From the human T2T-CHM13v2.0 reference genome, Homo sapiens: DNA of 64,000 nt. A program made the position numbers and the translations under genes. Shown in pieces: positions 44,520 to 50,165 of this stretch. The stretch is taken from the NCBI RefSeq assembly GCF_009914755.1, contig NC_060925.1. One strand, written 5' to 3'. Numbering within the stretch: the first letter of the stretch is position 1; each line of letters starts with the position of its first letter. A model generated the notes under the pieces. That model was not told where the DNA came from and ran no database searches. It saw only the letters and a list, made by a program, of their open reading frames with translations.

Positions 44520-46290
44520 AGATGTATCAGTAGTCCATTGATTTTTATTGCTGAGTAATATTTGATTGTATAGTTTGTATATTCTTCTGTTGTTTATGGG
44601 AGTTTTATGGGGGGAGTTTGATTCAATTTTTAGCTATTTATTAATATGGCTACTTTAAACATTCTTTTTCACATCTTTTTTCTGGGCATGTGTTTTTATT
44701 TTTGTTAGGTAAATACCCCGAAATAGAACTGCTAAGTCATGTGGTCAAGTGACATTTAATTTTATAGGAAGTTACCGATTGTTCTTCAATGGCAATAGAT
44801 GTGAGTTCCATTTGCTCCATACGCTCACTGACGTTAAGATAGAATTGTCTGCCTGTTTAAATGTTCTAGTGAATGTGAAATGGGATCTCGTGTTTTTAAT
44901 ATGTGTTTCCCTATTGACTATGATATTGAGCACTTATTCATGCGTATATTGCTTATTCATGTATCTTCTTTTGTAAAGTGTTCATTTAAATATTTTGCTT
45001 AATTTCAAATTTTGGCTGGCTGTCTTTTAAGTGTTTTTTTAAATGACTTTATGTATTTTGAATATGAATCCTTTGAAGATATATGAACTCTGAATATGTT
45101 TTACAGTCTGTGGCTTATTTATTTTCTTAATGGCAAGTTTTGATAAGCAGAAATTTTAAATTTTGATGAAATTCCATATGACTTTTTTCTTTCTTTCAAA
45201 ATTAGTGCTTTTTGTGTTCTGTTAAAGAAATCTTTACCGCAAAGTGAAAAAGATAGTCTCCTATGTTGTCGTTTAGAAGGATAATGGTCCTAGCTTATAT
45301 GTTTAGGTTTAAGAGGCATCTCAAACTAATTTTTGTTTATAAACTGAGGTAAGGGGTCGAGGTTTCCTTTTTTCTCCATAAAAAATTTTGTTATTCTGAC
45401 ACCATTTATTTTATTCTTCTTTTTCTATCTTCTTAAGGGAATAGCTTGGATAACTGATTTTATACATCTCTTCTAATTATTAAACCTTAGCTGTAACCCC
45501 TAAATGTTTTATATTATATTTTAATCACATTCTTTTAAGATGTTTATATTTTTCCTTTTTACTTTTCTTTGACTAATGAATTCTTTTGAAATGTTTTCAC
45601 TTTTCTTCTCCTCTATATCTTAATGTTATTAATTGCTAATGTAATATTATATTTGTTAGTGATCATGTTTTGTATGATTTCAATCCTTTGTAATATATTA
45701 AGATGCATGTTAGAGATATTATAGCCAAACATAATCTATTTTAATGAGCATTTCCTGTGCAATAGAAAAAAATGTGTATTCTTTGATTGCTGGATGTATA
45801 TTCTATAAATGTCAATAAGCCAAGTTAGTTGATTGCATTTTTAAAATATCCTATACATTTGCTTTATTTTACCCTTGACTTGTTCTATCATTCATTGAGA
45901 TGGATGTTAAAGTCTTTAATCATGTTTGTTGATTTATTTCTTCCTTAAGTTCTGTCAAATTTTGCTTAATGCATTTAAAGCTTTTTTTGGGGGGTACATA
46001 CACATTTAGAAGTGTGTCTTTTTGATAACATGATGCTTTTGTCATTATGAAATATCCCTCTTTGTTTTGAAGTCTACATCAGTTGCATCAGCTTTGTTAT
46101 TGTTGGTGTTTTGGGTATCATAATGATACCCTTATATTTTCAATTAGTATTATCCTTAAACTGTTTCTCTAATATAATACATAATTGTATCTTCCTTTTT
46201 AAAATTTCCAGTTTCTCAATCTCTTTCTTTTCACTGTAGTGATTAGTCTATTTATGGAACATTTTGGTGCCCCTACATTTACTGTAATTA
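44520..46290 (-). mobile_element. Old L1M (L1ME/MC-like) fragments, antisense
   Basis: ttttattgctgagtaatattt, ggtaaataccc, aaattttaaattttgatgaa, gtattttctataaatgtcaat-like motifs. Confidence 0.75.
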
Positions 46291-46638
46291 TTTCAAAATC
46301 CAGCTACTTAAGGTAGACTGGGAGAAATTTCTTTACTTAGGGAACATGATGGTCTCCTAAAGATAGTCCAGCCACTGTGGTAGGGTAAACAGAGAGGCAA
46401 CAAGCCCAGTTTCTCTTTTTCAGGCAGAGGCAAGAGAGGAAGTTTTAGCTCAAGATGTTTATGTGTTTCAAAATAACATCTACTCCTATACAAACCCACT
46501 CAGTAGCTGCTAAGGAATGCTAGCCATCTGAATGACTCATATATGTTTTCACTTTTCTTTTGCTCTATATCCTAATGTTATTAATTTCTAATGTAATATT
46601 ATTATATTTGTTAGTGATCATGTTTTGTATGATTCCAG

Positions 46639-46777
46639 AAGCAGAGCCCCTGGAAAACTCACATATGTGTCAACAATAGTCCTTGATGCCCCTGTAACAA
46701 AACTTGAGCAAGGCCTGGTGATGAAGAGATACAAGATTGTCACCCAAGGATTTGATTATACCTCTGTTGAAAGTTAA
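46639..46777 (+). CDS. Candidate alternative terminal coding exon of an unidentified upstream gene; frame from 46640 encodes SRAPGKLTYVSTIVLDAPVTKLEQGLVMKRYKIVTQGFDYTSVES*
   Basis: T-rich tract and ttccAG at 46637-46638, a 45-codon stop-free frame ending in TAA at 46775-46777, then repeat-poor AT-rich sequence with AATAAA signals; no upstream exon or protein homology identified. Confidence 0.35.
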
Positions 46778-48844
46778 TGCACACTCAACCGAATATGGCA
46801 ATTGGTACTCTCAATTCTATATTCTCAACAATTACAGTGAAGATACAAGTAGAATACAATCACTGCCACATTTTTTGAAATTCTGTGTAAACTGTAATAT
46901 TCTGTCAACATTAATGACATTTGAAGTGTCCTGTCAAAACAATTGCAGCTACTTTATGTATAAAACATATTAAATAGGCTCATCCAACTTGCATTCTTTA
47001 TTAAGCTTATTTTCATATTTTTTCCTATGGATGAACTTAAAAATAATTTTGTTTCTTAATTAAGATTCTATGCATGAAGATGCTGAATAATTTAAGACAA
47101 TTGTTCATTCAAATAGTTGCTAATTACACCCTCCTGGCATAGTTATTGTATTATTACTACATTTAGGAATAATATGCTGTACTACTTGGACTTGAAAATG
47201 TTTCTGACATTTTAATGAACACACTACTTAGTTATATTTTACAAGGGTTTTCAGTGAACCACAGAGGATTAAAAAATGTCATTCAAGGGTTGTAGATAAT
47301 TAAACTGACTGAATATAAGAAGCCTCATATGGAAGTGAAAATTATGTATGAATTTTGTTGAGCTGGAAATGTGTTTTACTAAATGACTTCAGATTTGTTA
47401 CTTTTAAATACAAGATGAAGGGAATCAAGGGGATACTTTCTTCTCACCTCAATTTGTTCCATTTGCATAAGCTATTTTATCTTTCAATATCCCTTTTGAT
47501 ATTTCATTTTGGCCCTTGAATACACTAAAGATTATTTAAAATAAATAAATGTTGACTTTGAAATACTGCTATATATATTCATTGCAATACATCAGGTGGG
47601 AAATTGGTGCAATTCAGTCACACACACAACCTCATAGATCAGATTTCCAGTTAAGTTTTAATAGAAAGAGATTTTAGATAGACATGACTTTCAATAAAAT
47701 GGAAGAATTTTTATTAGTTTCAAAATAATGATTTTACTTGCTTATCAACACAGTTGACCTTTCCCCACAGTACTATGATCTTCTTAGTACCTCTGCTATA
47801 ATTATATTAATGTCTTCCTATATCTAGAAATTTGATTATTATTCTATTTTTATGGATCATTAAATTTTTCTATTCAAGAATGATCCCTATAGTCAACTTC
47901 CTGAGGGATTTCTGCTTGCTATTTTCTGTTTCAATTGTGTGCATTTCATATTTACTATTAAAGATTTTAAATAATGACACATTGTTTAAGCGGTTGTAAG
48001 TCTGATTGTTATAAAGCTCTCTGGAGAATTCTGTAAGCTTTCACATCTGATGGAGAACTTCAATGAGAACATCTTTAATGTGGAATTCTTGGACAAGAAA
48101 CTACAGATTATCCATGGTTCAGAAGATATGATGAATTAGTAACTATTTTTCCGTACATAAAAAGTCAATCTTCCTAACCAGTTTGTTGTTTTAGCTAAAT
48201 GAATCGGTCAAATATTTTAGTTATATTAGCAATATTTTGTCTCTAAAATATCTTGACATAAAACTATTACTATGCATATATTATTAACCATGATCTTGTA
48301 TAGCTCTATTTCAAGCGTATTACTAACCATAACGAAAATAACTTTTAATACTGAAATACATCATCGAACTTCTAAGACTTTTTCTATTTAAAATTCCTAA
48401 GATTTGTAAAATTCTATCAACGTAGTTACTTAAAGCAAAACAAGTTGCGTTATAGTTTCTTAAAACAACATTTTGTATATTGTACTTTTTAAAAACAACA
48501 TTTCCCAGCTACCACTTTTGGCAAGAAATTGAGAGTTTAAACCTGTTGAAAGGAATATAAGATGAGTGTATGTGTCTCACAGTCATAATTAAAATGTGTT
48601 TATGAACATGTATATACTATTGCACATAAATTATGTACTCTCATTCATTCTTTAAAATCCACTATTTCTCATTATCTCAGATTGTGCTAAATTTCAGGTT
48701 AAGCTAATGAGGTATTTTCTTCTGAATTTTGAATTTCTTTCATGAGAAGTTACTAAGAAATCATAAGTAAGTTCAAATTCTTTACCAGTTCTCGATTTGA
48801 ACACTAGTATTCTCAGAAACCTAGGAACAGGAAAGAAACACCCT

Positions 48845-49217
48845 CCCTTTATCACAGTAGGCTAGGATGTGCTGCAATAGCCAGCACAAAAATCAAAGTG
48901 GTTAAACACAATGAAAATTTAATTCTCCCATTACAGGTCCACACAGGTCAGCAGGACTCACCCTCTGGCTGATGGAGGCTCCATCATGTTCCAAATACAC
49001 TATTTGCTACCCATGCTCTCCTTGGTCACTGCTATAGAGAAGCAGAGCCCCTGGAAAATAGCCCTAAGAAATTTAACTGCCTCAGGCAAAGATTGACATG
49101 TGTCACTGCTGCTCATATTTCATTGACATGGGCATGGCATACTTAAATGAAAGGGTGCCAGGAAATGTGTGTGTGGAGGATTAAAATAGTTGGCAAGCAC
49201 CAGTGACCCTGCTACAT
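48845..49217 (-). mobile_element. Ancient MaLR/ERVL LTR remnant (MLT1K/L-like)
   Basis: ggctaggatgtgctgcaata...ggctgatggaggctccatc...gtcactgctgctcatatttcattg...ctgctaca. Confidence 0.6.
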
Positions 49218-49679
49218 GGATATCTGCTATCACTGACACCCTGACTGTCACAATATGCAAAGAAAAACTCAAGTGCCTATGGGAAAGATCACATATTATA
49301 AAATCATAACTGAAAACTTGGGAACTAATATTTTTTCTACTGTAGAATATCCAACTCTTGTTTAACTTAACCTGTATTTTTTTAAAATAACAATTTTATT
49401 TCTAAAAAATACACACCGATTTATTGTTTTCATTTTTAGTGTGAGTGGCTACTGCTTGATAAAGTTTGCTCCTCGTGCATTCTTTTCTCTTTTTTTCTCC
49501 AGGGTGATATTGTGGATTGAACAGAGCACAGGGCTGAATCTGAAATACAGACAGGTTGCAATTAAAATAAAATTTACATAGATACATGTGGAAGGTCATA
49601 TAGAGAGCAAGACCAACTAGATATAAACGATGGGCAAAGGGGACAGAGAAGCACATAAAAGGTAGGTTTTGGTCTCATG

Positions 49680-50165
49680 TATGTTAGTTTCGTGTGGGTG
49701 TTGTAAAAAAAGACGACAAACTTGGTGGTTGAAGACAAAAGCAATTTATTCTCTCACATGTTCTGAAAGCCAGAAGTCCAAAGTCAGCATTACTGGGCCA
49801 AAATCAAGGTGTTACAGGACCATGCTTCCTCTGGAGGCTCTAGGGAAGTCTCCTTCCTTTTCTCTTCCAGCCTCTAGTGGCTGCCAACATTCCTGGATGT
49901 ATGCCCATATCACTTCTCTATACTCCATGTATACATTGTCTTCTCTTCTGCGTATACGTCAAATTTCTTTCTGCCTTGTGCTTATAAGGATACTTGTGGT
50001 GACATTTAGGGACCAACCACATAATCAAGGATAACCCCCTCATCTCAAAATTCTTATTTTAAGCGCATCTGAAATGACACATGTTTTCCCCCAAGTTAAG
50101 TAACATTTACAGGTTCCAAGGATTAGGACCTGATACCTTTGGGGACCATTATTCAGCTTACTATG
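49680..50165 (-). mobile_element. MLT1C-like MaLR solo LTR
   Basis: caaacttggtgg...aatttattctctcac...ctctggaggctctaggga...cattattcagc; TSD tcatg/ccatg. Confidence 0.88.

What the first reader, a model, noticed from the sequence alone, without database searches (positions are those of the whole stretch)
46535..46668. Composite two-donor templated insertion that creates a new splice acceptor
Seen in the sequence: 46543-46637 is a copy of 45591-45682, which lies about 950 bp upstream in an antisense L1 remnant (5 substitutions plus one 3-nt indel). It is followed at once by 46637-46657, an exact 21-nt copy of 49038-49058 (agaagcagagcccctggaaaa), which lies about 2.4 kb downstream in an old LTR. 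The cassette is bracketed by an 11/12 direct repeat, actca(t/c)atatgt, at 46535-46546 and 46657-46668. Junction microhomologies are ATGT, A and A, and there is no poly-A. Established knowledge: this architecture matches serial template switching (FoSTeS/MMBIR or Pol-theta-type templated insertion) rather than retrotransposition. Inference: donor 1 supplies a T-rich tract with branch-point-like ctaat motifs, and the donor1/donor2 join makes ttcCAG, an acceptor present in neither donor. A DNA-repair scar stitched from two unrelated transposon relics may therefore have created an exon.
Basis: partly seen in the sequence, partly recalled or inferred. Interest (0 to 1): 0.85.

Follow-up and report, generated by a model that had tools for sequence, protein, structure and literature searches.

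The report
Old two-donor DNA repair patch
A 110-base patch in a gene-free stretch of human chromosome 1 was copied long ago from two nearby places during DNA repair; it is a real but ordinary example of a scar type already catalogued, and nothing shows that it made an exon.

Summary
The described sequence is there. 46543-46637 copies 45591-45682 with 5 substitutions and one 3-nt indel. 46637-46657 is an exact copy of 49038-49058. A 12-bp direct repeat (11 of 12) brackets the cassette, and the junction overlaps are 4, 1 and 1 nt.

It is not chance and not a repeat family. The 21-mer occurs exactly twice in the 3.1-Gb genome. The cassette hits only itself and donor 1. Other L1 copies are 55-76% identical over the donor stretch, against about 92-95% between the two local copies.

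Donor 1 lies in an antisense L1 ORF2 remnant. The "old LTR" label for donor 2 could not be verified.

The best reading is one DNA-templated repair or replication event that copied two nearby templates. This is the "repair-mediated duplication" class of Pace et al. 2009, which includes two-donor chimeras and target duplications. Divergence of 4.8% implies an age of tens of millions of years.

The exon claim is unsupported. The acceptor is ordinary: 875 of 3,869 YAG sites in the window are as pyrimidine-rich. The hub's table annotates no gene here. No primate genomes or RNA data were available.

The parts
46535..46546 (+). Left copy of the 12-bp target duplication (ACTCATATATGT). Its last 4 nt (ATGT) overlap the start of the donor-1 copy.
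46543..46637 (+). 95-nt copy of donor 1 (L1-derived, AT-rich, 22% G+C), with 5 substitutions and a 3-nt insertion relative to the donor.
46637..46657 (+). 21-nt exact copy of donor 2. It shares 1 nt (A) with the donor-1 copy on its left and 1 nt (A) with the right target duplication.
46657..46668 (+). Right copy of the 12-bp target duplication (ACTCACATATGT).
45591..45682 (+). Donor 1: original stretch inside an antisense L1 ORF2 remnant. L1 paralogs align straight through both of its ends (for example 45487-45798), so this copy sits in its native context.
49038..49058 (+). Donor 2: the only other exact occurrence of the 21-mer in the genome. The repeat class of its surroundings is not established.
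45920..46078 (-). Stop-free remnant of the L1 ORF2p endonuclease domain (residues 91-139 of the human protein). It fixes the family and orientation of the element that holds donor 1.
46660..46669 (.). Perfect 10-bp palindrome of alternating pyrimidine/purine (CACATATGTG) at the restored target site. It is a possible break or stall site, by inference only.

Best explanation
This is the scar of one ancient germline repair or replication accident. A DNA end at the target ACTCAYATATGT primed synthesis on a nearby template 950 bp upstream, using 4 nt of overlap (ATGT). It copied about 90 nt of an antisense L1 remnant. Synthesis then moved to a second template 2.4 kb downstream of the break and copied 20-21 nt. 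The strand rejoined the original duplex 12 bp behind the point of departure, so the target is duplicated.

An alternative two-ended version is also possible: the two 3' ends of a staggered break each copied one donor and were then joined. Either way this is a DNA-templated, copy-not-cut event, because both donors are still in place. [quoted passage not shown]

Shown: the copies, their uniqueness in the genome, the junctions, and the lack of retrotransposition marks. Inferred: the order of switches, the enzyme pathway and the age. The patch has since drifted neutrally and has no demonstrated function.
For: Local copy, not a repeat family:
- The cassette hits only itself and donor 1 in the 3.1-Gb genome.
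- The 18 L1 paralogs scored (at least 60 of the 92 donor positions aligned) are 55-76% identical to donor or copy. Donor and copy differ at 5 of 92 sites plus one indel.
- The 21-mer is present exactly twice genome-wide, 2.4 kb apart.

Donor 1 is the original: paralogs align continuously across both of its ends.

One event is sufficient. Zero differences in the 21-mer has probability 0.36 at the pooled divergence of 6 in 125.

The differences lie on both lineages. 45620 and 45680 are derived in the copy and 45635 is derived in the donor, judged against 15-18 of 18-20 paralogs. That is as expected for long neutral drift.

There is no poly-A, no poly-A signal and no TTTT/A nick site.

The published class matches. 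Pace et al. 2009 (PMC2671141, sections 6, 7 and 10 read) report:
- 824 proximal duplications with the donor under 5 kb away, mean length 162 bp;
- 20 two-donor chimeras, five with the second donor 289-3,432 bp from the first;
- target duplications of 4-21 nt in 6 of 39 inspected proximal breakpoints;
- no poly-A/T tract of 5 bp or more in any of those 39.

Osia et al. 2021 (PMC8421209, passages seen) describe germline insertions copied from up to three templates.
Against: Two of the three junctions have only 1 nt of overlap. That is weak for a strictly microhomology-primed switch and fits plain end-joining as well.

Both donors are in the same orientation as the insert and in chromosomal order. 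A single collinear RNA or looped template would also give that arrangement.

No extended imperfect homology supports the first switch. There are 8 of 18 in-register matches upstream of ATGT, and 111 of 972 control 18-mers equal or beat that.

No empty orthologous site could be examined, because no primate genome is held. The insertion status therefore rests on the internal architecture alone.
Confidence: 0.8

Rival explanations
1. RNA-templated patch. A transcript of the plus strand spanning both donors, either spliced or with a reverse-transcriptase jump, was reverse-transcribed. It was then inserted by L1 ORF2p (class 1 templated sequence insertion) or captured at a break (class 2).
For: Both donors are collinear and co-oriented with the insert. 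The 12-bp target duplication lies within the range typical of L1-mediated insertions. Class 1 TSIPs require a duplication of at least 5 bp (PMC5110952, abstract and section 9 read). Donor 2 is immediately preceded by ...TATAG, which could be read as a 3' splice site.
Against: There is no poly-A: the longest A or T run is 4 and is fully templated by the donors. There is no AATAAA or ATTAAA on either strand. The nick sites read GAGT/CATT and ATGT/GTCA rather than TTTT/A. The sequence after donor 1 begins AATCC or ATCC, not GT or GC, so canonical splicing is excluded. Class 2 TSIPs are described as lacking target duplications. In Pace et al., none of 39 inspected proximal duplications carried the poly-A/T tract that marked retrotransposition.
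Confidence: 0.1
2. Two separate events. The L1-derived piece and the 21-mer were inserted at the same nucleotide at different times.
For: The 21-mer has 0 differences from its donor, while the 92-nt piece has 5. Taken alone, this could suggest that the 21-mer is younger.
Against: Zero differences in 21 nt has probability 0.36 at the pooled divergence, so no age difference is required. A single 12-bp duplication brackets the whole cassette, and there is no second duplication or deletion at the internal junction. Two hits at one nucleotide are unparsimonious.
Confidence: 0.03
3. No insertion. The matches are independent copies of interspersed repeats, or chance.
For: Donor 1 is part of a high-copy family. 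In one search the first look found 222 candidates, 40 were scored, and 40 of the 42 matches listed lie elsewhere in the genome.
Against: Family members are 55-76% identical over this stretch, against about 92-95% for the local pair, which shares many private states. The 21-mer is unique to these two places, with 0 copies at one mismatch. The cassette flanks 46240-46542 and 46658-47100 match nothing else in the genome. An 11-of-12 repeat exactly at the edges has p = 2.2e-6 per register.
Confidence: 0.01
4. Functional reading by the first reader. The donor1/donor2 join created a used 3' splice site, so the patch founded an exon of an unannotated transcript.
For: A CAG preceded by a T-rich stretch exists at 46636-46638. 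GT dinucleotides that could serve as donors follow, for example CTG|GTGATG at 46718.
Against: The pyrimidine score is 12 of 18 and the longest pyrimidine run is 4. 875 of 3,869 YAG sites in the window do as well or better. The CTAAT branch candidates are 47 and 63 nt upstream, outside the usual 18-40 nt (a range recalled, not tested). An AG at 46613 intervenes. The hub's table lists no RefSeq gene in the 64-kb window and the nearest lncRNA is more than 90 kb away. No Rfam family matches in 45000-49500.
Confidence: 0.03

Closest known systems
[quoted passage not shown]
   Same: It is a germline insertion of at least 50 bp whose sequence exists at only one other place. The donors lie within 5 kb on the same chromosome. 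There is microhomology plus a target duplication, and no poly-A. It is a two-donor chimera whose donors lie about 3.4 kb apart (the published range for proximal pairs is 289-3,432 bp). It is of primate age.
   Different: Their pipeline only finds acceptors that interrupt an annotated transposable element. Here the acceptor flanks matched nothing else in the genome, so the locus may not be in their list. Their Table S1 could not be opened. They favour SDSA, and this locus cannot discriminate SDSA from replicative switching.
MMBIR/FoSTeS templated insertions (MMB-TIs; Osia et al. 2021, NAR, PMC8421209)
   Same: Serial copying from more than one nearby template, short overlaps at the switches, and return to the original template. 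Such events are present as germline variants in normal people.
   Different: Two of the three overlaps here are a single nucleotide. Replication dependence cannot be tested from sequence. This event is ancient, by inference from 4.8% divergence. Whether it is fixed or still polymorphic in humans could not be checked.
Templated sequence insertion polymorphisms, class 1 and class 2 (Onozawa & Aplan 2016, PMC5110952)
   Same: A short stretch templated from elsewhere is inserted at a break. Class 1 has a target duplication, as here.
   Different: Class 1 also requires a poly-A tail, a poly-A signal and a TTTT/A site, and all three are absent here. Class 2 lacks target duplications. TSIP templates are described as distant regions and RNA-derived, whereas here both donors are within 2.4 kb in cis.

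Membership tests
Repair-mediated duplication (Pace et al. 2009) | [quoted passage not shown] | tested here: met
   The 134-bp cassette matches only itself and 45591-45682 in the 3.1-Gb genome. The 21-mer occurs exactly twice.
Repair-mediated duplication (Pace et al. 2009) | Donor on the same chromosome within 5 kb of the acceptor, and more than 50 bp away (not tandem) | tested here: met
   Start-to-start spacings are 952 bp and 2,401 bp.
Repair-mediated duplication (Pace et al. 2009) | Breakpoints with microhomology, filler, deletion or target duplication, and no poly-A/T of 5 bp or more | tested here: met
   Overlaps are 4, 1 and 1 nt with a 12-bp duplication. The longest A or T run is 4.
Repair-mediated duplication (Pace et al. 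2009) | Acceptor interrupts an annotated transposable element (their detection criterion) | tested here: inconclusive
   Flanks 46240-46542 and 46658-47100 gave no other match in the genome. No repeat library was available.
Repair-mediated duplication (Pace et al. 2009) | Empty pre-insertion site in an outgroup species | not testable with these tools
MMBIR/FoSTeS templated insertion | Microhomology at each template switch | tested here: inconclusive
   The overlap is 4 nt at the first junction but only 1 nt at the second and third. Extended imperfect homology is not above background, 111 of 972 controls.
MMBIR/FoSTeS templated insertion | Two or more templates copied in series, followed by return to the original template | tested here: met
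   Two donors are joined head to tail, and the sequence resumes 12 bp behind the departure point.
L1 ORF2p-mediated insertion (processed retrocopy / class 1 TSIP) | Target-site duplication of at least 5 bp | tested here: met
   12 bp, 11 of 12 identical.
L1 ORF2p-mediated insertion (processed retrocopy / class 1 TSIP) | Non-templated poly-A tail and upstream AATAAA | tested here: not met
   Neither AATAAA nor ATTAAA occurs on either strand, and the longest A or T run is 4 and templated.
L1 ORF2p-mediated insertion (processed retrocopy / class 1 TSIP) | Insertion at a TTTT/A-like endonuclease site | tested here: not met
   Nick contexts are TATGAGT/CATTCA (sense) and CATATGT/GTCAACA (antisense).
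Used 3' splice site / new exon | AG preceded by a strong polypyrimidine tract, with a branch point in range and no intervening AG | tested here: not met
   Pyrimidines are 12 of 18, at the level of 875 of 3,869 YAG sites. The CTAAT branch A lies 47 and 63 nt upstream, with an AG at 46613 between.
Used 3' splice site / new exon | Lies in a transcribed unit, with junction reads | not testable with these tools
   No RNA data are held. The hub's RefSeq table lists no gene in the window.

The most novel reading that the evidence does not exclude
The join of an L1-derived T-rich tract to a 21-nt G+C-rich piece made a 3' splice site that an unannotated, perhaps tissue-restricted, non-coding transcript of this gene desert actually uses. 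A repair scar stitched from two sources would then have founded an exon.
Probability: 0.03. Interest if true: 0.45.

Novelty: new member of a known kind. Interest (0 to 1): 0.15.

Why it matters
It is a clean, fully resolved example of a two-donor repair patch. Both donors are still in place, all three junctions are readable, and there is a 12-bp target duplication. It is useful as a teaching case or as a benchmark for callers of templated insertions. It adds nothing new to the known mechanism. Such patches were counted in the hundreds in the human genome in 2009, including two-donor chimeras. It would matter more only if the patch were shown to be spliced into a transcript, and there is no evidence for that.

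Tried and rejected
Things tried that led nowhere or were rejected:

- **'Old LTR' label for donor 2.** 48850-49350 found only itself in the genome. In the search with 48300-49900, the 39 non-self matches all fell on an unrelated repeat of about 215 bp at 49665-49899. The label remains unverified.
- **Paralogous 'empty site' as a stand-in for an orthologue.** The cassette flanks (46240-47100) have no other copy in the genome, so no paralogue exists to compare.
- **Extended imperfect homology at the first switch.** There are 12 of 22 in-register matches, but only 8 of 18 once ATGT is set aside, and 111 of 972 control 18-mers equal or beat that. Rejected as not significant.
- **Spliced-RNA template.** The sequence after donor 1 starts AATCC or ATCC, so there is no GT or GC 5' splice site. 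Rejected as a canonical intron.
- **A second small patch.** 46452-46469 matches 45537-45554 at 16 of 18 (D9), with E 0.88 in the window BLAST. This is chance level.
- **Structured RNA.** No Rfam family matches in 45000-49500.
I could not check whether Pace et al.'s Table S1 already lists this locus.
- **Literature on exonization.** A search for 'exonization' with 'templated insertion' returned 5 papers, 4 listed. Neither term was in any title or abstract of those listed (listing only).

Full report
**Observation.**
- 46543-46637 matches 45591-45682 (E 7e-34).
- 46637-46657 matches 49038-49058 exactly, 21 of 21.
- Nothing else in the window reaches significance; the next best E-value is 0.07.
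- A pairwise alignment shows 5 substitutions and one 3-nt insertion in the copy.
- The junction print-out confirms the 12-bp direct repeat at 46535-46546 and 46657-46668, ACTCATATATGT against ACTCACATATGT.
- The overlaps are ATGT, A and A.
- The chance of at least 11 of 12 at one fixed register is 2.2e-6.

**Not a repeat family, not chance.** The window is chr1:186,992,001-187,056,000 of a 3.1-Gb genome that could be searched whole.
- The 134-bp cassette hits only itself and donor 1.
- The 21-mer occurs exactly twice, with no copy at one mismatch and 13 scattered copies at two mismatches. The reversed control pattern has none.
- The region holding donor 1 (45300-46300) belongs to a high-copy family. 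The first look found 222 candidates, 40 were scored, and 42 matches were listed. Forty of these lie elsewhere in the genome, at 66-77% identity.
- In one search, 23 paralog loci were projected onto the window and the 18 with at least 60 aligned positions were scored. Over the 92 donor positions they are 55-76% identical to either local copy. The two local copies differ from each other at 5 of 92 sites.
- The pair also shares many private states. The lower copy is therefore a copy of this particular L1 remnant, not an independent L1 insertion.
- Paralogs align without interruption across both ends of donor 1, for example 45487-45798. Donor 1 therefore sits in its native context and is the source.

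**What the donors are.**
- On the minus strand, the stop-free frame 45920-46078 matches residues 91-139 of the human L1 ORF2p endonuclease domain (E 3.4e-5; nine L1 ORF2p entries among the ten hits). 'Antisense L1 remnant' is correct.
- 'Old LTR' for donor 2 could not be verified. 48850-49350 found only itself.
- In the wider query 48300-49900, the 39 non-self matches all fell on a repeat of about 215 bp at window 49665-49899, which does not cover 49038.
- The target flanks 46240-47100 are unique at this sensitivity.
- The genome tool states that it skips very common words and scores only the best candidates. Absence of matches is therefore weak evidence against an old, decayed repeat.

**Age.**
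- Pooled over the 92-nt piece, the 12-bp duplication and the 21-mer, there are 6 differences in 125 nt. That is 4.8%, or a Jukes-Cantor distance of 0.050.
- With substitution rates of 0.5-1.5e-9 per site per year (recalled, not from a call), the point estimates are 17-50 million years. The Poisson range runs from about 6 to about 105 million years.
- Zero differences in the 21-mer has probability 0.36 at this divergence, so one event suffices.
- I polarised the five substitutions against the L1 paralogs. 45620 and 45680 are derived in the copy (family T in 16 of 18 and 18 of 20). 45635 is derived in the donor (family T in 15 of 20). Two sites are ambiguous.
- Change on both lineages fits long neutral drift. 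Error-prone repair synthesis could account for part of the copy-side changes, which would make the event younger.

**Mechanism.**
- Both donors remain in place, so the event copied rather than moved DNA.
- The insert has no A or T run longer than 4, and those runs are templated by the donors. It has no AATAAA or ATTAAA on either strand. The two possible first-nick sites read TATGAGT/CATTCA and CATATGT/GTCAACA rather than TTTT/A.
- Of the four marks of L1 ORF2p-mediated insertion listed by Onozawa and Aplan (PMC5110952, abstract and section 9 read), only the target duplication is present.
- A canonical spliced RNA template is excluded, because the sequence following donor 1 begins AATCC or ATCC.
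- The remaining and best reading is DNA-templated synthesis primed from a broken or stalled end. It has two forms:
  - Serial switching: target to donor 1 to donor 2, then back to the target 12 bp behind.
  - A two-ended form: each 3' end of a staggered break copied one donor and the products were joined.
- The 1-nt overlaps at two junctions do not favour either form. They are as compatible with end-joining as with microhomology-primed switching.
- Imperfect homology upstream of the first junction is not above background: 8 of 18, equalled or beaten by 111 of 972 controls.

**Comparison with what is known.** Pace et al. 2009 (PMC2671141; abstract and sections 6, 7 and 10 read, plus passages) catalogued this class in the human genome.
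- They found 1,136 insertions of at least 50 bp with a single parental copy. 824 of these had the donor within 5 kb (mean 162 bp).
- Twenty acceptors were chimeras of two donors. In five of them the second donor lay 289-3,432 bp from the first.
- Among 39 inspected proximal breakpoints, none had a poly-A/T tract, and 6 had a target duplication (3 MH+TSD, 2 MH+TSD+filler, 1 filler+deletion+TSD; range 4-21 nt).
- Of the 1,136 duplicons, 289 were catarrhine-specific and 513 primate-specific.
- The present cassette fits on size (110 bp), distances (0.95 and 2.4 kb), donor separation (about 3.4 kb), lack of poly-A, microhomology plus a 12-bp duplication, and inferred age.
- Osia et al. 2021 (PMC8421209, passages seen) describe germline insertions copied from up to three templates in normal people. 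They attribute them to an MMBIR-like process, with other mechanisms not excluded.
- The finding is thus a new member of a known kind, or an already listed one. Their pipeline required the acceptor to interrupt an annotated transposable element, which I could not establish here.

**The exon claim.**
- The AG of the proposed acceptor is the first two bases of donor 2, which in its native place is already preceded by ...TATAG.
- The C at 46635, just upstream, is a derived change in the copy. It arose by later substitution or by a copying error, and is not a product of the join.
- Upstream pyrimidines number 12 of 18 at positions -20 to -3, and the longest pyrimidine run in the 33 nt before the AG is 4.
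- Of 3,869 YAG sites on both strands of the window, 875 have at least as many pyrimidines, and 864 of those also have at least as long a run. This was a crude pyrimidine count, not MaxEntScan or SpliceAI.
- The two CTAAT motifs place their branch adenosines 47 and 63 nt from the AG, and an AG at 46613 lies between. From general knowledge (recalled), branch points usually lie 18-40 nt upstream, and the first AG downstream of the branch point tends to be used.
- The hub's RefSeq table lists no gene in the 64-kb window. No Rfam family matches 45000-49500.
- A literature search for 'exonization' with 'templated insertion' gave 5 papers, 4 listed, with neither term in a title or abstract (listing only).
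- No RNA data were available, so use of the site is untested. Nothing raises it above the many equivalent sites nearby.

**Verdict.** The structural interpretation is supported at the level of 'DNA-templated two-donor repair patch', and the specific pathway is undetermined. The functional interpretation is unsupported. It is a well-preserved but ordinary example of a published class.

Noticed in passing
window 46660-46669 (and 46538-46545 in the left repeat): The restored target site contains a perfect 10-bp palindrome of alternating pyrimidine/purine, CACATATGTG. The left copy carries the 8-bp palindrome CATATATG. Short alternating palindromes are plausible break or stall sites, but this was not tested.
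   Followed up: partly
window 49665-49899: An interspersed repeat of about 215 bp. All 39 non-self matches listed were 74-81% identical, from 1,643 first-look candidates. The family was not identified, and the repeat does not include donor 2.
   Followed up: no
window 46452-46469 vs 45537-45554: A 16-of-18 direct match lies upstream of both the cassette and donor 1 (D9). E is 0.88 in the window BLAST, so it is probably chance in AT-rich sequence.
   Followed up: partly
L046 (G000:C24:62211822-62212096) and L047 (G000:C23:154013354-154016628 locus): Two L1 paralog loci on contigs 23 and 24 gave identical alignment coordinates and scores. This is as expected if they lie in a region shared by the two sex chromosomes.
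   Followed up: no
window 46240-46542 and 46658-47100: The sequence around the insertion (32-40% G+C) has no other copy in the genome at the tool's sensitivity. It starts near where the antisense L1 remnant appears to end (about 46290, not mapped precisely). Its origin is unknown.
   Followed up: partly
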